DNA of 24,660 bases from a virus (lineage: Duplodnaviria; Caudoviricetes), in the IMG/VR virus record IMGVR_UViG_3300042393_000543, positions 1-24,660 of that record. The stretch is one strand, 5' to 3'. The notes under the pieces are model-generated. The model worked only from the letters and a program-made list of their open reading frames with translations, was not told the origin of the DNA and ran no database searches. Position numbers and translations under genes: made by a program. Positions 1,532-17,413 of the stretch are shown in pieces; position 1 is the stretch's first letter, and each line of letters opens with the position of its first letter.

Positions 1532-1602
1532 GGATTGAGCAAGATTGTTTCGTCATTTTTGCCCAGCTTTTCTGCCAAATTTCCGAGCCTTTCCCGCATT
1601 TC

Positions 1603-1682
1603 CGCCAGTGGAATCTGGTTCTTCGCCAGTGGAATCTGGTCTGCCGTCGGTGGAATCCGGTCCCTCGTCGGCGGAGTCCGGT
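1603..1682 (+). repeat. 4 x 21-bp tandem repeat, progressively diverging
   Basis: 17-nt cores at 1603, 1624, 1645, 1666: CGCCAGTGGAATCTGGT, CGCCAGTGGAATCTGGT, CGTCGGTGGAATCCGGT, CGTCGGCGGAGTCCGGT. Confidence 0.9.
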
Positions 1683-1689
1683 GTCGGTG

Positions 1690-2097
1690 TTGGGGGGTAA
1701 GGTATGCTGATGGGGGACGGCTGGGTAGCTGGATTTGGCGGTTTCGTTCATGCCTTCGGCGGGGGGAATGTATGGCTGGTTTCGCGGCCCGGTATGGTCT
1801 TATCATTAAGTGGTAGGACCATACCGGGCTCGCCCAGGTTCTACCTTCCCCCCGAGTCCTTGCTTCCGTTTCCCTTCTTGAGCCTGGACCTTACATTTCC
1901 CGTTCTCCTACTCTCCCCTTTTTTATCTTATATAGAAATTTTTTTTTTTTTAAAAATTGAGCCATACATTAGCCAGCTCACTGAGTCCCGGCCAGTTCGG
2001 ACCCAGCCCCGACCATACAAACCGCCCCAAAACGTATGAACGAAACGCCGTTTTTCAGCTACCCAGACACCCCCCATTGCCATCCCTTACCACCCAA
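1690..2097. repeat. Long imperfect inverted repeat (62-bp arms at 1690-1751 and 2036-2097)
   Basis: Ungapped hand alignment of the left arm with the reverse complement of the right arm gives 47/62 identity; encloses a palindrome, a pyrimidine tract and a T13 run (1939-1951). Confidence 0.8.
1787..1829. promoter_or_regulatory. 35-bp palindromic operator-like element, copy 1
   Basis: GCCCGGTATGGTC / GACCATACCGGGC perfect 13-bp arms around TTATCATTAAGTGGTAG; related copies at 8187 and 14202. Confidence 0.7.
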
Positions 2098-2136: not shown

Positions 2137-2165
2137 TTGACAATCCCGCCGGGATGTGCGATTGT
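2137..2165 (+). promoter_or_regulatory. Putative sigma70 promoter for the rightward early operon
   Basis: TTGACA (2137-2142), 17-nt spacer ending in TGC, weak -10 GATTGT; about 50 nt before the first rightward ORF. Confidence 0.4.
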
Positions 2166-2214
2166 ACGGGAGCGGGGGGATTATGCCCGCGGAATTTATG
2201 AATGGAGTAAATCA

Positions 2215-2382
2215 ATGCAGATACGTTGCGCGGATGAGGGGCTGGACCTGTTCCCGGACTCGGAATTGCCGGAACTGTTTTACGAGATTCAAGGGCCGTT
2301 GGATCGGCCCGAGGATGAAGAAGCCGAAACGGCAACCCTTTGCCTGTATCTGGTGCGGTCGTGCGGGAGGATTGTGGTATGA
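2215..2382 (+). CDS. Small acidic hypothetical protein (55 aa)
   Basis: ATG 2215 after GGAG; the stop overlaps the next start (ATGA). Confidence 0.55.
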   Translation: MQIRCADEGLDLFPDSELPELFYEIQGPLDRPEDEEAETATLCLYLVRSCGRIVV

Positions 2383-2630
2383 CCAGCAAGCCCCTTTTTG
2401 AGTTCCACGCCGCCTGCCGCGAGGTTGTGGTCTGCCGGGGAAACCCCGCACTGGACTACGCGATCGACTACGCCCAGGCCGGGCTTGCGATGACCGACGC
2501 GGATGAGTGCCGGGTGCAATGTCTGTACCTTTGCGAGAATATCACCAAATGGCGCGGCCCGATCGCTGAGGGCGCCCGCAAGGCTTTCCGCCGCCTCTCG
2601 CTTCCTTCTGCTTGGGAGTCCGAGAGATGA
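2379..2630 (+). CDS. Hypothetical phage protein (83 aa)
   Basis: GGAGG RBS at 2366-2370, ATG 2379 (MTSKPLFEF...), ATGA coupling at both ends. Confidence 0.7.
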   Translation: MTSKPLFEFHAACREVVVCRGNPALDYAIDYAQAGLAMTDADECRVQCLYLCENITKWRGPIAEGARKAFRRLSLPSAWESER

Positions 2631-2740
2631 TCCGCGGCCTTCTTCTCGGCCTCCTCGGCCTTTACTTGGCCGACCTATCACTCAAGGCCACGCAACGTCA
2701 CGCGCATGATCTGTTCATCGCGCAACAAATGGGAGAGTAA
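2627..2740 (+). CDS. Small putative membrane peptide (37 aa, MIRGLLLGLLGLYLADLSLKATQRHAHDLFIAQQMGE)
   Basis: Hand-translated, below the ORF-track cutoff; GGAG RBS, ATGA overlap with the upstream stop, ends 1 nt before the next ATG; hydrophobic N-terminus. Confidence 0.55.
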   Translation: MIRGLLLGLLGLYLADLSLKATQRHAHDLFIAQQMGE

Positions 2741-2741
2741 G

Positions 2742-2960
2742 ATGTTCAAAGTCCGCAAAAAGTATGTGGTGAAAAACCGCCTCTGGGAGTGCCTCGCCAT
2801 CCGTGGAAATTACGCGTGGCTGGTTTCGATTTACGAGGGCGAGAAAGCGCAGAAATCGACCGCGTATGTCTGGAGCCACGACGGCAAGGCGGTTTCCCTC
2901 AGCGACGAATACGACATCGATTTCGCCGTCACGGAACTGGTCGAGGAAGATTTCGTCTGA
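2742..2960 (+). CDS. Hypothetical protein (72 aa)
   Basis: GGAG RBS then ATG 2742 (MFKVRKKY...). Confidence 0.7.
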   Translation: MFKVRKKYVVKNRLWECLAIRGNYAWLVSIYEGEKAQKSTAYVWSHDGKAVSLSDEYDIDFAVTELVEEDFV

Positions 2961-3026
2961 CACCGCATCGACAGTTGGCCGGGGACTTGTTCCGGCCAAT
3001 CTCCATGCGATGTTGCATGAATGGAG
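2960..3026 (+). ncRNA. Structured intergenic RNA motif, copy A1 (unclassified)
   Basis: ACACCGCAT-CGACAG-[TTGGCCGG/CCGGCCAA stem]-TCTCC-ATGCGATGT-TGCATG-AAT-GGAG; covaries with copy A2. Confidence 0.6.
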
Positions 3027-3034
3027 TATAGTTT

Positions 3035-3334
3035 ATGAAAATGCCTGACTCAGCCTTCGACGACCTTCTTCTGCTTTTCCGCGAGTTTGACTTGCTTGAC
3101 ATCGACGCGAGGGCCGCCTGCGAATATCACACGATCGGCCAGAACGCCAAGCGTTACCGCTGGGATCGGCTCTACGCAATCCCCTTTCCGGCCCGGCAGG
3201 CTTGGTTCGACGGCCACGCGATCTACGAGACCATGAACGACGATCACATCGACACGGCCCTGCGGAAAATCTTCTCCCACAACCGAGACATCTTCATCCC
3301 GCAGAAGGCCGCAAAAATGCTTGCAAGCCGATAA
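3035..3334 (+). CDS. Hypothetical phage protein (99 aa)
   Basis: GGAG RBS at 3023-3026; contains RYRWD...NDDHIDTALRKI. Confidence 0.75.
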   Translation: MKMPDSAFDDLLLLFREFDLLDIDARAACEYHTIGQNAKRYRWDRLYAIPFPARQAWFDGHAIYETMNDDHIDTALRKIFSHNRDIFIPQKAAKMLASR

Positions 3335-3335
3335 A

Positions 3336-3407
3336 ACACCACGCCGACAGTCAGGCGGGGCCGACCATCCCGCCTGATCTCCGTGTGATGTTGCACGAAA
3401 TAGGAGG
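3336..3407 (+). ncRNA. Structured intergenic RNA motif, copy A2 (unclassified)
   Basis: ACACCACGC-CGACAG-[TCAGGCGGG/CCCGCCTGA stem]-TCTCC-GTGTGATGT-TGCACG-AAAT-AGGAGG; same layout as A1 with compensatory changes. Confidence 0.6.
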
Positions 3408-3414
3408 CTACCCA

Positions 3415-3732
3415 ATGTTCCCTTTCACTGAGAAATACCCCGAGGCCGCCGGCCTGCTCCCCCAGTTCCTCGACCGCAACGACCCCCGGCCAGCCCGCGA
3501 ACAAATCCACGAGGCCTATGCGCACGGCGGCGGCTGGCATGAGTTCCGGGGCTTCACCCCGCACATCGACTGGGCGGACCCGCTGAAAAGCTACCTCAGC
3601 TACCCGGACGATCCGCCGACGCGAGCCGTTGCTTTCGCCCTATTCGGCGAGGAACTTGTGCTGCTTTTTCAAGGCAGCTGGTGCGCGATTGTCCAGCCCG
3701 ATCTCTCGGCAGAGATCGCCCGCCTAGACTGA
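3415..3732 (+). CDS. Hypothetical phage protein (105 aa)
   Basis: AGGAGG RBS, ATG 3415 (MFPFTEKYPEAAGLLPQFLDRNDPRPAREQI...). Confidence 0.8.
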   Translation: MFPFTEKYPEAAGLLPQFLDRNDPRPAREQIHEAYAHGGGWHEFRGFTPHIDWADPLKSYLSYPDDPPTRAVAFALFGEELVLLFQGSWCAIVQPDLSAEIARLD

Positions 3733-3792
3733 CGAAACGGGGGTCGTTCCCCGTCAGGGAGGTTGGCATCCTTCCTCTGATGAGTCCGCCAA
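3731..3792 (+). ncRNA. Hammerhead ribozyme, type II, with loop I / 3' tail pseudoknot (HH1)
   Basis: GAC-GAAAC-GGGG/CCCC stem III-GTC (predicted cleavage after C3755)-AGGGAGG/CCTTCCT stem I with loop TTGGCAT-CTGATGA-GTC; loop TTGGC pairs with GCCAA (3788-3792); full canonical core. Confidence 0.92.
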
Positions 3793-3805
3793 TAGGAGAA
3801 ATACC

Positions 3806-4255
3806 ATGCAAGATAAACTCAACTTCATGAAGAACTGCCTCAACGCGCTTTCCTTGCGCGGCTGGGATGACTCCCGGATCACTATGCAGGCCGAGATCAC
3901 GGCGGAAGGCAACGTCTGGACCGAGGATTACTTCTACGTCTATCCGGCCTATACTGATGAGGCGGGGGTGTTGCAGAAAGTAGACTCGCTCTACGTCCCC
4001 GTCTATAACCTCGAGACTTCCAAAAACAAAGACGCCTTCGCGGCTCGGCTGCTTGCTGCAACCCCTCCGATCAAGGAACACAAGACCAAGCTTCTCCTCG
4101 AACACGTCGCCAAGATCAGCGAGCTTGCGGCCGCCCTTAACCTTTCCGCCGACTTCATCAACCCGATCACGGCGCTGGCTGATCTGATCCGCACAAACAT
4201 CCTGCCCGCCTCGTCCGGCTTCGCTCCGGTCGAGTCCGACGACATTCCCTTTTAA
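3806..4255 (+). CDS. Hypothetical protein (149 aa) with SSB-like C-terminal DDIPF tail
   Basis: AGGAG RBS, ATG 3806; ends ...PVESDDIPF; lies between two hammerheads. Confidence 0.8.
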   Translation: MQDKLNFMKNCLNALSLRGWDDSRITMQAEITAEGNVWTEDYFYVYPAYTDEAGVLQKVDSLYVPVYNLETSKNKDAFAARLLAATPPIKEHKTKLLLEHVAKISELAAALNLSADFINPITALADLIRTNILPASSGFAPVESDDIPF

Positions 4256-4258
4256 CCT

Positions 4259-4315
4259 GACGAAACGCCTTCGGGCGTCTGGTGCCTTGGCATGGCATCA
4301 CCGATGAGTCTGCCA
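4259..4315 (+). ncRNA. Hammerhead ribozyme, type II, variant core CCGAUGA (HH2)
   Basis: GAC-GAAAC-GCC TTCG GGC-GTC (predicted cleavage after C4279)-TGGTGCC/GGCATCA stem I with identical loop TTGGCAT-CCGATGA-GTC; TGGCA pairs with TGCCA (4311-4315). Confidence 0.82.
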
Positions 4316-4329
4316 CATGGAGTCCAATA

Positions 4330-4677
4330 ATGTCTGAACAAAGTATCGACACCGTCTACCTCACGGCCCGCGGCCTTTCCGCAATGCTCGCCAGCGGCGA
4401 TCACGAGAACCTGCCAGCAAGCGACCTTGCAGAAATCTGGTCTGAGCTTCTCCAATCCATCGCAATCTTGGCCAAGTCTGGCCAATGCCCGCCGGAACTA
4501 ATCGGCCAGCTTATCAAAGAACTGCCCCTGACCGGGCGAGTCGGCGTCATGGGGCCGGATGGCAAACCCCGCTACAAGACAAACCGCCGTGTCGCCCTCG
4601 CGACCGCCGAAGCCCTTGGCGAGGACGCCGCGCAGGACCTCTACCACTTCGCGGTTCTCGTGACAAAGCTTAGCTAA
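4330..4677 (+). CDS. Hypothetical protein (115 aa)
   Basis: GGAG at 4319-4322, ATG 4330 (MSEQSIDTVYL...). Confidence 0.75.
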   Translation: MSEQSIDTVYLTARGLSAMLASGDHENLPASDLAEIWSELLQSIAILAKSGQCPPELIGQLIKELPLTGRVGVMGPDGKPRYKTNRRVALATAEALGEDAAQDLYHFAVLVTKLS

Positions 4678-4678
4678 C

Positions 4679-4912
4679 ATGAGCCCGCGCCACTTCACCC
4701 GCAAACTCTCAGCCGCCGAGGCCTCCGTTTTCCTCGACGAGCTTTACCTTAACACCGGGCTCAAGCCCGAACCGTTCCCGAGCGGCTCAATCATCATTTC
4801 CCCGTCAGGGGAGCCGATGATCCGCGTCTTGGAACTCACTTCCGGCCACGTCCTATTCTACTTCTCAACCGACTTCTACAAGGAGCCCAAAAATGGCCTC
4901 AAGAAAAGATAG
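4679..4912 (+). CDS. Hypothetical protein (77 aa)
   Basis: Starts 1 nt after the upstream stop; C-ending codon bias like its neighbours. Confidence 0.65.
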   Translation: MSPRHFTRKLSAAEASVFLDELYLNTGLKPEPFPSGSIIISPSGEPMIRVLELTSGHVLFYFSTDFYKEPKNGLKKR

Positions 4913-5270
4913 CTCCCCCGCGGCCTACGGCGACGTTAAGTTCATCCTCGAACTCGCCGTCAAAAAGCCCGGCCTGCAGTACGTCCTGAAATCCTCCGGC
5001 GCCGCCGTCAACTTCAAACAGCGCTGCAACAAGTACCGCAACCTTATCCGCGAGATGGCCGCGGAAACGGTGCTGAACATCCCAGGCCACCGGGCCGAAA
5101 CCGCCTATGACGTTCTCGTCATTCGCCAAGTCGGCCCGGACCGCCTTCCCGACCGCCACGGCTGCACGATACTCTTTGAGCATCAGCAACTCAGCGGCTC
5201 GATCATCGACCCCGAGACGGGCGACCTGATCGAAATTCCGGGCCTGACCAACATTCTCCGGGAGTATTAA
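4893..5270 (+). CDS. Hypothetical phage protein (125 aa)
   Basis: AAGGAG RBS, ATG 4893, operon packing. Confidence 0.75.
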   Translation: MASRKDSSPAAYGDVKFILELAVKKPGLQYVLKSSGAAVNFKQRCNKYRNLIREMAAETVLNIPGHRAETAYDVLVIRQVGPDRLPDRHGCTILFEHQQLSGSIIDPETGDLIEIPGLTNILREY

Positions 5271-5271
5271 C

Positions 5272-5505
5272 ATGACCGACTACGCCCCTGAGGCCGCGCC
5301 GTCCGTCGCGCTCTCCCCGATCATCACCCAACGCAACGAGAACATCGCTAAGGCCGCGCTAGGCAACCTCACTGACGGGCAGTTGCAGCTTGTCCTTGAG
5401 GCCTACATGACAAAACGCTACGGCCCGAGGAGGGCCGCCGTTTTGCTTTCGATGATCTCTCGCCAATGCGAGATTGCCCCGTGGGCCGAGGGGGTCCGGA
5501 AATGA
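5272..5505 (+). CDS. Hypothetical protein (77 aa)
   Basis: GGAG RBS, ATG 1 nt after the upstream stop. Confidence 0.7.
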   Translation: MTDYAPEAAPSVALSPIITQRNENIAKAALGNLTDGQLQLVLEAYMTKRYGPRRAAVLLSMISRQCEIAPWAEGVRK

Positions 5506-5696
5506 TCCCCTTCGGCCCCTGGCAATCCTATCACCACGAGGACGCGGCCCGATACGCCGCCATGTCCTACGAGCCCGAATACACCTGCCCATGCCACGGC
5601 ACAGGGCGCGTGACTTACCTGCGGCTGGGATATTCTCAAGCCGATGACCGCACCGTAACTGAGCGGTGTCAAAACGCATTGGAGATCAAACCATGA
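5502..5696 (+). CDS. Small hypothetical protein (64 aa) with CPCHGTG motif, possibly metal-binding
   Basis: ATGA overlap at both ends; GAGG upstream. Confidence 0.6.
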   Translation: MIPFGPWQSYHHEDAARYAAMSYEPEYTCPCHGTGRVTYLRLGYSQADDRTVTERCQNALEIKP

Positions 5697-6091
5697 GCAA
5701 TGGACAAACAACGTGCCGCGGATATCGGCCAGAGGTCAGAACGTCCTATCACAAGCCGTCGATGGTCTCAGGTCAGATCGTGGACTCGGTGTGGCGGCCA
5801 ATCAATTACGAAAACCGCAGCGATCATTTTGGCATACCTGCCGGTTATTTCGACAAGAAACTCACTGAGCATCACCTGCTCAGTCTGGCACAGGCCGAGG
5901 CAATTCGCTGGTGGTTTATTGCAAACGCTGACGCCGAGGGACCAGCAAAGTCCCTTTGCCTAGAGACGCGGCTGCAGGAATACTCCCTGCAGATCACGCA
6001 CTCAGTCAAGCCCGTAGCTGCTCTGCGCGGACTGGATTCTCAAGGCCGCGCATTGCCAGACCCATCTAGCACATTGGAGCCCCAGCCATGA
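5693..6091 (+). CDS. Hypothetical protein (132 aa)
   Basis: GGAG RBS, ATG 5693 (MSNGQTTCRG...), ATGA overlaps. Confidence 0.7.
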   Translation: MSNGQTTCRGYRPEVRTSYHKPSMVSGQIVDSVWRPINYENRSDHFGIPAGYFDKKLTEHHLLSLAQAEAIRWWFIANADAEGPAKSLCLETRLQEYSLQITHSVKPVAALRGLDSQGRALPDPSSTLEPQP

Positions 6092-6306
6092 CCCACTGGA
6101 CCATCATGCTCATCACAATCCTGTCCGGCCCTATGGCCGGAACAGCCACCCCAATCCTGTACCGAACCGAGGCCTTATGCCAAGCGGCCACGGCCAGCGT
6201 CTCTAACTCCCTGAGCGAGTCCTACGACCACAAGCTGGCCTGCCTGCCGACAGTCCGTGCCTCGATCTCCGCCCACCCAAAGGAGCGGCCTGATGCAAAC
6301 CCTTGA
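6088..6306 (+). CDS. Small putative membrane or exported protein (72 aa, two Cys)
   Basis: GGAG RBS; hydrophobic N-terminus WTIMLITILSG. Confidence 0.65.
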   Translation: MTHWTIMLITILSGPMAGTATPILYRTEALCQAATASVSNSLSESYDHKLACLPTVRASISAHPKERPDANP

Positions 6307-8166: not shown

Positions 8167-8186
8167 TTTCCCCGTCGGCGGAGTCT

Positions 8187-8221
8187 GGTATGGTCTTATC
8201 ACTTAATGATAGGGCCATACC
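8187..8221. promoter_or_regulatory. 35-bp palindromic operator-like element, copy 2 (core inverted relative to copies 1 and 3)
   Basis: GGTATGGTCTTATCACTTAATGATAGGGCCATACC, intergenic, 16 nt upstream of a predicted -35 box. Confidence 0.7.
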
Positions 8222-8237
8222 TTACTCAACAAGACCC

Positions 8238-14188: not shown

Positions 14189-14236
14189 TTGACACTAGCT
14201 CGGTATGGCTTTATCATTAAGTGATAGCGCCATACC
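14189..14236 (+). promoter_or_regulatory. Sigma70 promoter overlapped by 35-bp palindrome copy 3
   Basis: TTGACA (14189-14194), 17 nt, TATCAT (14212-14217), with the -10 inside GGTATGGCTTTATCATTAAGTGATAGCGCCATACC (14202-14236). Confidence 0.75.
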
Positions 14237-14255
14237 GACCTGCGGGAGCCACTAC

Positions 14256-15269
14256 ATGCACAAACCAGTCTTTATTATAGGCGAGGCCCTTGGCGAGGAA
14301 GAAGAACGGCGGAACGAGGCCTTCGCAGGCCCGGCAGGTTCTGTCCTCCACGGCATCCTCCGCCAAGCCGGAATAGCCAAAGACGACTGCTATTTCACAA
14401 ACGTCTTTAACTTCAGGCCGCGCGGGAACCGCCTTGACTCAGTTCTAACCGGCAAGCCCAACGCCATTGCAAACTACCGCCCGATCTCAGCCGGGAAATA
14501 CGTCGACAAACAATACCAGCCTGAGCTCGATCGCCTGCAAGCCGAACTCGATGCGGTCAAGCCCAACGTAATTCTTGCCCTCGGCAACTACGCGCTTTGG
14601 GCCGTCTGCAAAAAGACCGGCATCAAGCGGTACAGGGGCAGCCCGCTTTATTCCCACGACGCTCGCTGGAAAGTCATCCCGACCTGGAGCCCGGCCTCTG
14701 TCCTCAAACAGTGGGAAATCCGCGTAGTCATGCTCGCGGATATTTCTAAGGTCGCCCGCGAGATGACCTTCCCCGAACTTCGGCGGCCCCAGCGTTTCAT
14801 CTACATGGAGCCGACCATGCAGGAGATCGAGGACTTCTACAACCAGTTCCTGCGCAACCAACCCTTTATATCCTGCGACGTGGAAACAAAAGACCGCACG
14901 ATTACTGAGGTCGGCTACGGCACAGCCGACGGCCGCCATTGCCTCGTCATTCCCTTCTGGGATCGCACGAGGAAGGACGGCAACTACTGGCGGACGCACG
15001 AGGAAGAACGCGAGGCCTGGAGATGGGTCCGCCGCATCAACGCCTCGCATCGCCTCATCGGCCAAAACTTCTCCTACGACATGCAGTATTTCTGGCGGAC
15101 TGCGGGCATCCCTTGCCCAGGTTTCCTCGGGGACACTATGCTTCTCCACCACTCCATGCAGCCCGAACTCGAAAAAGGCCTGGGCTTCCTTGGCTCGATC
15201 TACACCGACGAGCCGTCTTGGAAGTTTATGCGTACCGATCACTCAACATTAAAGCAGGCAGACGAATGA
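14256..15269 (+). CDS. Uracil-DNA glycosylase-like domain fused to a partial DnaQ-like 3'-5' exonuclease (337 aa)
   Basis: IIGEALG..E...AFAGPAG, YFTNV, ILALGNYA, TWSPAS (family-4-like UDG); ExoI CDVET, ExoII GQNFSYD, DTML; GGAG RBS. Confidence 0.85.
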   Translation: MHKPVFIIGEALGEEEERRNEAFAGPAGSVLHGILRQAGIAKDDCYFTNVFNFRPRGNRLDSVLTGKPNAIANYRPISAGKYVDKQYQPELDRLQAELDAVKPNVILALGNYALWAVCKKTGIKRYRGSPLYSHDARWKVIPTWSPASVLKQWEIRVVMLADISKVAREMTFPELRRPQRFIYMEPTMQEIEDFYNQFLRNQPFISCDVETKDRTITEVGYGTADGRHCLVIPFWDRTRKDGNYWRTHEEEREAWRWVRRINASHRLIGQNFSYDMQYFWRTAGIPCPGFLGDTMLLHHSMQPELEKGLGFLGSIYTDEPSWKFMRTDHSTLKQADE

Positions 15270-15487
15270 AATATCTCACAGTCATGGCCACGGCGGAGCT
15301 TGGCTCCGCACTAGAACTCTACCACGTTAATCCCGCCAGCATAGTGCATTTGCGGGACATGGGATCATACACAGTAAGAATGGCGTCAAACATCGTCATA
15401 GACTCCCCGATCTGTTTTGTAACTCTATTCAGCGGTGAGCTTTACGTCAGCGGAGTCGCCGAAGAATTGATTGCGAGGATGGCATGA
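15266..15487 (+). CDS. Small hypothetical protein (73 aa)
   Basis: ATGA overlaps at both ends; MKYLTVMATAE... Confidence 0.6.
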   Translation: MKYLTVMATAELGSALELYHVNPASIVHLRDMGSYTVRMASNIVIDSPICFVTLFSGELYVSGVAEELIARMA

Positions 15488-15816
15488 TCTACATTGCATC
15501 ACCGTACACTCACCACAATCTCGACGTGATGACCAGCCGGTATGAAGCCGTCCTCCACTACGCAGGCCGCCTGAAATCCGCGGGCATCCCCTGCTTCTCG
15601 CCGATCGCCTACGGCCACGAGTTCTTCATCCGCGGTTACACTCCGCCATACTTTACCTTCTGGCAGTCCTTCAACGATCACATGATCCTCGCATCCTCGG
15701 AAGTCGTGGTCCTGACCCTCCCAGGCTACAACGAAAGCGTGGGCGTCCAGCATGAGATCGAGTTCGCGCGCAAAAACAATATGCCAGTGAGGTTCGTCGC
15801 CAATGAAGATTTTTGA
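15484..15816 (+). CDS. DUF1937 / nucleoside 2-deoxyribosyltransferase-like fold protein
   Basis: MIYIASPY...FSPI...ESVGVQHEIEFARKNNMPV. Confidence 0.75.
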   Translation: MIYIASPYTHHNLDVMTSRYEAVLHYAGRLKSAGIPCFSPIAYGHEFFIRGYTPPYFTFWQSFNDHMILASSEVVVLTLPGYNESVGVQHEIEFARKNNMPVRFVANEDF

Positions 15817-17413
15817 CACGGCCAACCTCGACGAGAAAACCATGCCGCTTCTTTCCGCCCAGGAGGCCGCATGGATTTACAACGGCCTAGACGTTTGCGT
15901 GACCGCCGAAATCTACAATACTCTCATGGCGCAACTCGACACCGAGCCGCTAAATATCCGGGCAACCTACGAAACCGCGCTGGCCAAACTTGCCCCGATT
16001 ATGGAGATGGGCCTGCGCGGAACCTTGATCGATGAGGAGGCCCGCCAGTTCTCCATCCGCGACCTTGAGTCCGACCTTCGCGGGCTGGACCACAAATTCC
16101 AGCGGATCATGCGGGAAGTATTCAGCGGGGAGGTTAATTGGCGTTCCCCGCTTCAGCTAAAAAACCTGTTCTACGGGATGCTGGGGCTGAAAGAAGTCAA
16201 GAAGCGCAACGCGCAGGGCGTTTTTGCGGCCACCGTAAACCGCGAGGCGCTAGAATACTTCGACCTCTACCTCTACGCCAAGCCCCTCGCCCGCATGATC
16301 CTCGCCATGCGGGATATTCACAAACAGGTCAGCTTTCTAAAGACTGAGATTGACCGAGACCAGCGCATCCGCACCACCTACAACATCGCTGGCACGAACA
16401 CGGGCCGCCTAGCCTCCTCCATGTCCGAGTTCGGCACCGGGACAAACTTGCAGAATGTGAACCGAAAACTCCGCTACCCGTTTACTGCCGACCCAGGAAT
16501 GTATATGGTCAACGTGGACCTTGAGCAGGCCGACGGCCGCAATGTCGGCGCAATCTGCCACAACCTTTTCCTCGACGCAGACGCAAAGCTTCTCGCCCGC
16601 CTCATGGAAGTCCCCGTCTGGAAAGGCCCCTGCGGCCCTGAGTTCGCTTCCGCCTTCCTCGACGCCTGCGAGTCCGGCGATCTCCACACCTACGTTTGCC
16701 GGATGACGTGGCCAGAACTCGACTGGCCCGATGACCCAAAACTCCTGAAGAAGTTCTGCGACGGCCTTATCGCTCACGGCCAGGACAGCTACCGGCAGCT
16801 TGCTAAGAAACTCGGCCACGGCACTAACTACTACGGGACGCCGCGGACAATGGCCAAGCACGCTCACGTCCCGACAAAGATCATCGAGACATTCCAAGAG
16901 CGCTACTTCACCCAGTTCCCGGCAATCAAAGCTTGGCACAACTGGACGATTGGCGAAATTCAAACGCACGGAACTCTTACCACCCCCTTCGGCCGCCGGA
17001 GGATGTTCTTCGGCCGAGGCAACGACGCCAGCACCTGGCGCAAGGCCATCGCCTATTCCCCGCAGTCCATGACCGGAGAACAGATTGACCGCGGCCTGCT
17101 TGAAATCTGGCGCAAGTATCCAAACGTCCAGCTTCTAAACCAAGTCCACGACTCCATCCTTTTCCAGGTCCCCTTCCGCGAAGCTACTCACTTGATCCCT
17201 GAAATATTAAAGACGATGCAGGTCGCCATCGAACTCAAGGGCGGCCGCCAATTCACCGTTCCTCTCGAGGCCTCAGGCGGCTGGAATTGGGGCTACGCGG
17301 ATAATGAAAACAACAAATATGGACTCAAAAAATGGACAGGAAAAGAGGACCGGGATCGGCCTTCGCCCAAAAGTCGGCTCCGCGACTTGCTACAGCCCGC
17401 CCGGACTTCATAG
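15803..17413 (+). CDS. Family A DNA polymerase (ExoIII motif plus polymerase domain)
   Basis: YNGLD, TNTGRLAS, NLQN, motif A DLEQADGR, GDLH, motif B RQLAKKLGHGTNY, TPFGRRR, motif C QVHDSI. Confidence 0.93.
   Translation: MKIFDTANLDEKTMPLLSAQEAAWIYNGLDVCVTAEIYNTLMAQLDTEPLNIRATYETALAKLAPIMEMGLRGTLIDEEARQFSIRDLESDLRGLDHKFQRIMREVFSGEVNWRSPLQLKNLFYGMLGLKEVKKRNAQGVFAATVNREALEYFDLYLYAKPLARMILAMRDIHKQVSFLKTEIDRDQRIRTTYNIAGTNTGRLASSMSEFGTGTNLQNVNRKLRYPFTADPGMYMVNVDLEQADGRNVGAICHNLFLDADAKLLARLMEVPVWKGPCGPEFASAFLDACESGDLHTYVCRMTWPELDWPDDPKLLKKFCDGLIAHGQDSYRQLAKKLGHGTNYYGTPRTMAKHAHVPTKIIETFQERYFTQFPAIKAWHNWTIGEIQTHGTLTTPFGRRRMFFGRGNDASTWRKAIAYSPQSMTGEQIDRGLLEIWRKYPNVQLLNQVHDSILFQVPFREATHLIPEILKTMQVAIELKGGRQFTVPLEASGGWNWGYADNENNKYGLKKWTGKEDRDRPSPKSRLRDLLQPARTS

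What the first reader, a model, noticed from the sequence alone, without database searches (positions are those of the whole stretch)
2960..3407. Unclassified two-copy structured RNA motif with covariation, next to the hammerheads: candidate new ribozyme, switch or processing site
Seen: at 2960-3026 and 3336-3407 the layout is ACACC(GCAT/ACGC)-CGACAG-hairpin-TCTCC-(ATGC/GTGT)GATGT-TGCA(T/C)G-AA..GGAG. The inner hairpin changes sequence but keeps pairing (TTGGCCGG/CCGGCCAA vs TCAGGCGGG/CCCGCCTGA). The outer helix covaries (ACACCGCAT:ATGCGATGT vs ACACCACGC:GTGTGATGT) with the same C-A mismatch. A mutually exclusive hairpin also covaries (CATGCG/TGCATG vs CGTGTG/TGCACG), and the invariant CTCC is complementary to the downstream GGAG RBS. 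I could not match it to hammerhead, twister, pistol, hatchet, HDV or hairpin cores. Inference: a two-state translational switch, an RNase III-type site, or a self-cleaving RNA of unknown class. It occupies the same stop-to-RBS position as the hammerheads, and several ribozyme classes were originally found near known ones.
Basis: partly seen in the sequence, partly recalled or inferred. Interest (0 to 1): 0.82.

Follow-up and report, generated by a model that had tools for sequence, protein, structure and literature searches.

The report
Widespread phage pseudoknot RNA, candidate ribozyme
The two copies belong to a family of small structured RNA elements with no Rfam match, found between a stop codon and the next ribosome-binding site in unrelated tailed and filamentous phages, sometimes where relatives carry a hammerhead ribozyme; they are predicted to fold into a pseudoknot that possibly cuts the phage mRNA itself, which is untested.

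Summary
Window copies W1 (2958-3026) and W2 (3332-3406) are deviant members of a phage RNA motif: 4-nt 5' strand, ~5-nt linker, 8-12-bp hairpin (P3), 4-7-bp hairpin (P4) with a 6-nt RAUNNN loop, then SD and ATG. The 5' strand pairs with the P4 loop, with compensatory changes, so the 'mutually exclusive' hairpin is better read as one stem of an H-type pseudoknot. A long-hairpin state competes with it. A covariance model gave 47 matches in 33 of 50 pre-selected phage records, training copies included. Members lie between early genes of tailed phages and directly before the major coat gene of inoviruses. Behind homologues of one window gene, two phages carry a type II hammerhead and two carry this motif. 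No Rfam match; no pattern match in 401 Pseudomonadota genomes. The CTCC anti-SD idea fails (3 of 48). Most likely function: mRNA processing, by self-cleavage as a new ribozyme class (~0.38) or by RNase III (~0.25); a non-cutting stabiliser or coupling element is ~0.27. No RNA data were available and cleavage is untested.

The parts
2958..3026 (+). Motif copy W1, from the stop codon of ORF 2742-2960 to the SD of ORF 3035-3334
2961..2964 (+). W1 5' strand, predicted to pair with loop positions 3009-3012 (pseudoknot stem; one C-A mismatch)
2965..2973 (+). W1 linker J1 (holds the family's Y-A step at 2966-2967) and a 2-bp extension of P3; first four bases can pair with the 5' arm of P4 in the long-hairpin state
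2974..3000 (+). W1 hairpin P3, 11 bp
3004..3019 (+). W1 hairpin P4, 5 bp, 6-nt loop 3009-3014
3332..3406 (+). Motif copy W2, from the stop codon of ORF 3035-3334 to the SD of ORF 3415-3732
3337..3340 (+). W2 5' strand, predicted to pair with loop positions 3387-3390
3350..3378 (+). W2 hairpin P3, 11 bp
3382..3397 (+). W2 hairpin P4, 5 bp, 6-nt loop 3387-3392
3731..3797 (+). Type II hammerhead HH1 (3-bp stem II; loop I can pair with the 3' tail), next stop-to-SD gap; predicted cut after 3755
   Evidence: architecture as in PMC3088659; Rfam only 14.6 bits
4259..4317 (+). Type II hammerhead HH2 with a C in place of the usual U in the CUGAnGA block; predicted cut after 4279
3415..3732 (+). 105-aa early ORF; its homologues are followed by a hammerhead in two phages and by the motif in two others
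2137..2166 (+). Sigma70-like promoter candidate ahead of the early small-gene run
   Evidence: read from sequence; not scanned, inferred

Best explanation
The two copies are members of a phage RNA family that sits between a stop codon and the next Shine-Dalgarno site, is predicted to fold into a small pseudoknot, and most likely cuts the polycistronic mRNA, probably by itself as a self-cleaving ribozyme of an undescribed class (cleavage untested). Shown: position, family, and covarying stems P3, P4 and 5'-strand:loop. Inferred: during transcription the long hairpin forms first, then the 3' arm of P4 displaces linker J1 while the 5' strand stays paired to the P4 loop, giving an H-type pseudoknot with P3 inserted in loop 1. 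Inferred: the cut would fall in J1 (the conserved Y-A step is the best candidate) or between P3 and P4, leaving the downstream cistron with a 5'-OH and a structured 5' end next to a free SD, as the neighbouring type II hammerheads would. That would stabilise or separately tune downstream messages, including the inovirus major coat message.
For: Same slot as hammerheads: four consecutive gaps in the window hold motif, motif, hammerhead, hammerhead. Interchange: behind 9 distinct homologues of ORF 3415, 2 have a type II hammerhead (window, L221), 2 the motif (L251, L244), 5 neither. Not tied to a gene: downstream ORFs of 29 elements are mostly unrelated; 25 of 29 follow an ORF of 56 aa or more. 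Found in unrelated phages: inoviruses before Phage_Coat_B (L250, L255; Dulem virus 61, reached by protein homology) and a 61.6-kb phage-like contig binned in a Jhaorihella MAG. Pattern hits fixed only 2 bp of P4, yet 30 of 53 distinct hits extend to 4 bp or more and 20 to 5 bp or more (chance about 14% and 5%). 5'-strand:loop pairs hold in 89 of 92 cells while the J1:P4 pairs lying between them and P3 hold in 68 of 92, as expected if the outer pairs form independently. Compensatory swaps at loop position 4 (G-C, C-G, A-U) and 1 (U-A, C-G) occur in copies not picked by the pattern (W1, W2, L029, L278, L302, L310). Two adenines are kept without a partner: loop position 2 (23 of 23) and J1 position 3 (19 of 23, 7 unpaired); Y-A in 18 of 23. 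Size, pseudoknot and conserved positions meet the triage criteria stated in PMC10085705.
Against: No cleavage or RNA-end data. Base rate is poor: ten motifs tested in PMC10085705 did not cleave, and PMC6765202 notes non-cleaving motifs from the near-ribozyme search. The long hairpin is lower in energy than nested P3+P4 in 21 of 23 (median 4.2 kcal/mol, pseudoknot pairs not counted), and J1:P4 pairing exceeds all 500 shuffles, so that state is selected too. P3 is never under 7 bp in 49 descriptor hits, unlike the short peripheral stems of the local hammerheads. Only 2 nt cross the 4-bp pseudoknot stem, which is sterically tight (general knowledge). No unpaired invariant G stands out. The 23 aligned rows were hand-picked for having P4, and 18 carry the searched 10-mer, so much of the apparent conservation is by construction. 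W1 and W2 deviate from the family consensus, and W2 lacks the Y-A step.
Confidence: 0.38

Rival explanations
1. RNase III-type processing site, as in the T7 early transcript: the long irregular hairpin is nicked on its 3' arm just before P4, leaving P3 as a 3' end-protecting hairpin and letting P4 refold as a 5'-terminal hairpin on the downstream message.
For: Long-hairpin state has 20 or more pairs in 19 of 23 rows and is favoured in 21 of 23. Top loop to first base of P4 is 10-14 nt in all 23, near 11 bp plus a 2-nt overhang (PMC1540722). W1, W2 and L033 have U-A at the putative proximal-box position 2. Internal loops limit RNase III to single cuts and T7 early RNA has five such sites (PMC3867540). 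It would also explain sharing a slot with hammerheads.
Against: A-U or U-A at putative proximal-box position 2 in only 10 of 23; P3 is 9 bp or less in 6 of 23 and 8 bp in L278 and L302, while the minimal E. coli substrate loses activity 50-fold at 10 bp and nearly all at 9 bp. It does not explain the fixed 6-nt loop, the kept adenines, or why the outermost four pairs are better kept than those inside them. The E. coli rules may not hold for these hosts.
Confidence: 0.25
2. A non-cutting element: a pseudoknot or two-state structure that blocks 5'-end-dependent decay, or couples translation when the ribosome stopping on the overlapping stop codon unwinds the 5' strand, or binds a host protein and boosts initiation at the downstream SD.
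For: The stop codon overlaps or directly precedes the 5' strand; blocking the first 15 nt in silico switches W2, L033, L034, L023 and L035 to P4 (5 of 8 elements). The two states are close in energy. The position before the most highly expressed inovirus gene fits an enhancer.
Against: The SD is outside both states in most members and anti-SD CTCC occurs in 3 of 48; predicted SD accessibility changed little on switching in 7 of 8 elements. The hammerheads overlap stop codons too, so that overlap may be genome compaction.
Confidence: 0.27
3. A permuted or degenerate member of a known ribozyme class (pistol is the nearest in outline).
For: Pistol also has a short hairpin whose loop forms a pseudoknot and occurs near phage genes (PMC4604425). 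Covariance models miss permuted forms, and Rfam scored even the window's hammerheads below threshold.
Against: No CUGAnGA or GAAA blocks in the motif. Pistol needs a P2 stem and a strictly fixed 2-nt P3-P2 junction, usually GU; here that junction is 0-4 nt, variable, and a P2 equivalent exists in 3 of 48.
Confidence: 0.05
4. A neutral duplicated hairpin.
For: The two window copies share 25 fixed letters and could come from one duplication.
Against: Compensatory changes in three helices and dozens of copies in unrelated phages, always in the same slot.
Confidence: 0.02

Closest known systems
Type II hammerhead ribozymes with a loop I-tail pseudoknot (Rfam RF02276; PMC3088659)
   Same: Same stop-to-SD slot in the same phages, multi-copy in early regions, about 60-75 nt, pseudoknot, interchangeable behind one homologous gene.
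   Different: No hammerhead core blocks; different topology; self-cleavage not shown.
Pistol ribozyme (PMC4604425)
   Same: Short hairpin with a loop that pairs into a pseudoknot; phage-associated; about ten well-kept positions.
   Different: Pseudoknot partner lies 5' of the hairpin; no P2 stem; no fixed 2-nt cleavage junction; no Rfam hit.
RNase III processing signals of phage T7 early mRNA (PMC1540722, PMC3867540)
   Same: Intergenic irregular hairpin of about two helical turns in a phage early operon, upstream of an RBS.
   Different: Carries a second conserved hairpin and a pseudoknot pairing; box rules met in under half of members; upper helix often under 11 bp.
Uncharacterised motifs found near ribozymes (RAGATH series, recalled; HRIMA motifs, PMC10085705; IMG/VR candidate RNAs, PMC10690425)
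   Same: Conserved, covarying, ribozyme-adjacent or phage intergenic RNAs of unknown function.
   Different: No match in Rfam 15 or in the supplement text that could be searched; the large alignment files of PMC5737381 and PMC10690425 could not be read, so an unvalidated earlier listing is not excluded.

Membership tests
Hammerhead ribozyme | CUGAnGA block, GAAA block and cleavage block next to three stems (PMC10085705) | tested here: not met
   Core scan finds them only at 3731 and 4259, not in W1 or W2
Pistol ribozyme | Pseudoknot between P1 loop and the junction of P2 and P3; three stems | tested here: not met
   Loop partner is at the 5' end; a P2-like CTCC:GGAG pairing in 3 of 48
Pistol ribozyme | Strictly 2-nt junction (usually GU) between P3 and P2 | tested here: not met
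   Junction after P3 is 0-4 nt and variable
Any Rfam 15 family (incl. twister, twister-sister, hatchet, HDV-like, hairpin, riboswitches) | Covariance-model match | tested here: not met
   No hit on the motif in the window (E up to 10), 20 member loci (E up to 3) or 17 more (E up to 1)
Permuted forms of twister, twister-sister, hatchet, HDV-like, hairpin | Core nucleotides in a different order | tested here: inconclusive
   Compared by eye with recalled consensus features only, no fit seen; models do not cover permutations
Small self-cleaving ribozymes (as a functional kind) | Protein-free site-specific cleavage to 2',3'-cyclic phosphate and 5'-OH | not testable with these tools
   Needs in vitro assay or end-mapping
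Small self-cleaving ribozymes (as a functional kind) | 50-80 nt, pseudoknot or junction, conserved positions, covariation (criteria in PMC10085705) | tested here: met
   conservation partly inflated by the search pattern
H-type pseudoknot | Two interleaved stems, each kept by compensatory change | tested here: met
   95.2% of 207 cells paired, 5 of 9 pairs changed on both sides, 0 of 500 shuffles (rows hand-picked)
H-type pseudoknot | Loops long enough to cross the stems; both stems present at once | tested here: inconclusive
   2-nt crossing loop is tight; long hairpin favoured in nested folding; needs probing
RNase III substrate (E. coli rules) | About two helical turns | tested here: met
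   20 or more pairs in 19 of 23 in the long-hairpin state
RNase III substrate (E. coli rules) | At least 11-bp helix above the cut | tested here: inconclusive
   P3 11 bp or more in 13 of 23, 9 bp or less in 6 of 23; the cut register is assumed
RNase III substrate (E. coli rules) | A-U or U-A at proximal-box position 2 | tested here: not met
   10 of 23 at the assumed register (met in W1 and W2)
RNase III substrate (E. coli rules) | Cleavage by RNase III | not testable with these tools
   Needs enzyme assay or rnc mutant
Anti-SD translational switch | Conserved sequence that sequesters the SD in one state | tested here: not met
   CTCC in 3 of 48, 4-of-4 pairable in 5 of 48 descriptor hits

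The most novel reading that the evidence does not exclude
A new class of small self-cleaving ribozyme, built on an H-type pseudoknot with an inserted hairpin, used interchangeably with type II hammerheads by tailed phages to split early operons and by filamentous phages to release the major-coat message.
Probability: 0.36. Interest if true: 0.93.

Novelty: categorically new. Interest (0 to 1): 0.8.

Why it matters
Few classes of small self-cleaving ribozyme are known, and why bacteria and phages carry them is open (PMC6765202 says their purpose still needs defining). This family gives a ready test set: dozens of short natural variants with compensatory changes, one assay away from a yes or no. 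It also offers a direct comparison, since one gene is followed by a hammerhead in some phages and by this motif in others. If it does not self-cleave, it is still a new cross-phage element for processing or boosting mRNA, placed before the most abundant inovirus protein, and it would point to a sequence-specific host activity that phages of different families exploit.

Tried and rejected
Exact-core patterns found only this phage or a strain of it: 1 of 12 viral loci, 2 of 64 metagenome loci, plus L033 among 7 loci; a looser 3' pattern gave 7 loci, 4 already known and 3 without the structure. Neighbour proteins as bait returned only the same phage. blastn of the early region against cultured phages: no match; blastn with the L255 motif: two 22-nt chance hits. 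Model R2 found nothing in three cultured rhizobial phages that share early genes and, in 151 genomes of G001's order, only G001 and one hit inside a reading frame with its lowest pairs broken. Pattern search: 0 of 401 Pseudomonadota genomes (that stricter pattern also misses the G001 copy). No RNA holder listed. Four DNA runs showed no substitution inside either motif and a 1-nt deletion in the G run at the top of W2's P3, with patchy cover. A loose descriptor (83 hits) was mostly noise. Integron attC (core triplets resemble it in W2, recalled) was dropped: no integrase among 34 window ORFs scanned and many G-U pairs on the plus strand. Terminator: no U tract. Metabolite riboswitch: downstream genes are unrelated phage genes. 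L236, L246, L215, L232, L217 and L216 matched the pattern but lack a clean architecture and were left out of alignment A8; L035 is a looser relative not recovered by R2 or R3. Literature: nine answered searches listed no paper describing this motif, judged from titles and abstract starts.

Full report
Context. The window is a 24,660-base virus record, 57% complete, with helicase, exonuclease, Sak4-like, split DNA polymerase, primase and tail genes. It is held by lake-water DNA runs. One early ORF has homologues in 16 cultured phage records, all Rhizobium or Sinorhizobium phages, so an alphaproteobacterial host is likely (inference). Small early ORFs run from about 2215 to 6300. Four consecutive stop-to-SD gaps hold W1, W2 and two type II hammerheads.

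Observation. Each copy folds as a 22-bp irregular hairpin. Rfam has no match at E up to 10, although it also scored the local hammerheads poorly (14.6 bits), so its silence is imperfect.

First homologues, found without the motif's sequence. Loci around 22 helicase relatives were folded gap by gap. L033, from a phage with 41% helicase identity, has the same core letters with different stems. L032, L034, L023, L029 and, more loosely, L035 share the outline. A model from W1, W2 and L033 recovered L032 (E 1e-4) and L034 (E 0.012) in 664 kb, and L197 (E 1.5e-5 within 12 kb pre-selected by pattern). L197 lies on a 61.6-kb contig binned in a Jhaorihella MAG, with phage polymerase, helicase and ATPase genes; that genome has only weak partial matches to the window-type helicase. 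All eight elements examined then had a 4-5-bp hairpin with a 6-nt RAUNYY loop before the SD.

The wider family. The last viral scan fixed the common loop, two closing pairs, an SD and a 5' GRTT: 66 loci, 53 distinct matches. In 30 of 53 the two fixed pairs extend to 4 bp or more and in 20 to 5 bp or more, against about 14% and 5% by chance; 16 of 53 do not extend at all and are probably chance. Model R2, built from the six earlier copies, scored 8 further places in these loci at E 0.013 or better, which ties the window copies to the larger set. I hand-picked 23 copies from 20 records for alignment A8. Model R3 gave 47 matches in 33 of 50 records at E up to 0.02, training copies included. Of 14 matches inspected, 10 show the full architecture, several with other loops. 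A descriptor over 311 fetched sequences (1.74 Mb, redundant) gave 49 hits, some false, and added L278 and a second L302 copy. Rfam has no match to the motif in 20 and 17 member loci.

Where it sits. Of 29 elements checked, all have GGAG and an ATG behind them and 25 follow an ORF of 56 aa or more whose stop codon overlaps or precedes the element; downstream proteins are mostly unrelated. Three lie in inoviruses (L250, L252, L255), two of which were scanned and are followed by Phage_Coat_B. Dulem virus 61, reached through the protein upstream of the L252 copy, has a sequence-divergent copy in the same place before Phage_Coat_B (E 1e-10), with a compensatory A-U in the loop pairing. The stricter pattern has no match in 401 Pseudomonadota genomes. 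Behind 9 distinct homologues of ORF 3415, two phages carry a hammerhead, two the motif and five neither (the L308 label there is a regular-expression artefact). Hammerhead and motif also co-occur in the L032, L030 and L260 phages.

Structure. In A8, P4's inner four pairs hold in every row (partly by selection), the four 5'-strand:loop pairs in 89 of 92 cells, and the four J1:P4 pairs in 68 of 92. The pseudoknot reading has 95.2% of cells paired and beats all 500 shuffles; J1:P4 has 73.9% and also beats all shuffles. So both states carry signal, but the outermost pairs are better kept than those inside them. That favours a pseudoknot in which P4 and the 5':loop stem coexist, reached from the long hairpin by strand exchange (inference). 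Nested folding prefers the long hairpin in 21 of 23 by a median 4.2 kcal/mol with no credit for pseudoknot pairs, so the states are probably close. Loop position 2 stays A when its partner is C or A, and J1 position 3 stays A in 19 of 23, 7 times opposite G or A. Loop positions 5-6 vary freely in copies not picked by the pattern.

Mechanism. Riboswitch, terminator and gene-specific operator readings do not fit unrelated downstream genes and a free SD. Sharing and swapping the slot with hammerheads points to mRNA processing (inference). RNase III fits the two-turn size and the 10-14-nt distance from the top loop to P4, but the proximal-box rule is met in 10 of 23, P3 is often 8-9 bp, and the enzyme gives no reason for a fixed loop or kept adenines. 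Self-cleavage fits the pseudoknot, size and distribution, but has a poor base rate, a tight 2-nt crossing loop and no direct evidence. I put self-cleavage at 0.38, RNase III at 0.25, a non-cutting stabiliser or coupling element at 0.27. The gap bound excluded short-P3 variants; the descriptor, which allowed them, found none under 7 bp, but only in loci already held.

What I read. PMC3088659: passages and part 1 of 2 of the Discussion. PMC1540722, PMC3867540, PMC6765202, PMC4604425, PMC5737381, PMC10690425: passages found by term. PMC10085705: abstract, first third of Results, section 17, and its one held supplement searched by term (no match to the 10-mer). The supplement of PMC5737381 could not be read; of PMC10690425 six files were searched without a hit and three were not searched, so an unvalidated earlier listing may exist. 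Twister, twister-sister, hatchet, HDV, hairpin and attC features, the RAGATH name and pseudoknot loop-length rules are recalled.

Verdict. Real, phage-borne, apparently undescribed RNA family; function untested; a new ribozyme class is the single most likely reading but below even odds. Interest 0.8.

Noticed in passing
window 3731-3797 and 4259-4317: Two type II hammerheads with 3-bp stem II and a loop I-tail pseudoknot that Rfam misses; HH2 has a C variant in the CUGAnGA block. Similar ones in L024:992, L030:1598, L031:862, L032:4765, L037, L109, L260, L302.
   Followed up: partly
window 1787-1826, 8183-8222, 14198-14237: Three copies of a ~35-nt palindrome (80-85% alike) in intergenic places, with look-alikes near L033:2318 and 2433; probably operator or promoter sites.
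   Followed up: no
window 1581-1682 and 1370-1513: A degenerate 21-nt tandem repeat and a 32-nt triple repeat in the long non-coding region between divergent operons.
   Followed up: no
L057:676-860; run X19 at window 3332: A strain carries an extra small ORF just before W2, and one run has different sequence directly 5' of W2, so the motif's 5' edge may be a mosaic junction.
   Followed up: partly
L026:493, 740, 1585: A different two-copy long-hairpin element with a shared lower stem in the same stop-to-SD slot; not matched by R2 or R3.
   Followed up: no
L032:5213; L034:1299; L029:3724; L023:3134: Further long intergenic hairpins before SD sites; L029:3724 has a P4-like hairpin with a different 6-nt loop.
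   Followed up: no
window 14205-17413: DNA polymerase in two ORFs with a nucleoside 2-deoxyribosyltransferase-like ORF between them.
   Followed up: no
L207 (G001:C91:41601-61600): Phage-like contig binned in a Jhaorihella MAG; the motif precedes a 441-aa low-complexity ORF with a signal-peptide-like start and no Pfam or PHROG match.
   Followed up: partly
L133:1445 and 1740; L273:420; L307 (G152:820-884): Possible further copies with variant loops, seen only as descriptor or weak model hits.
   Followed up: no
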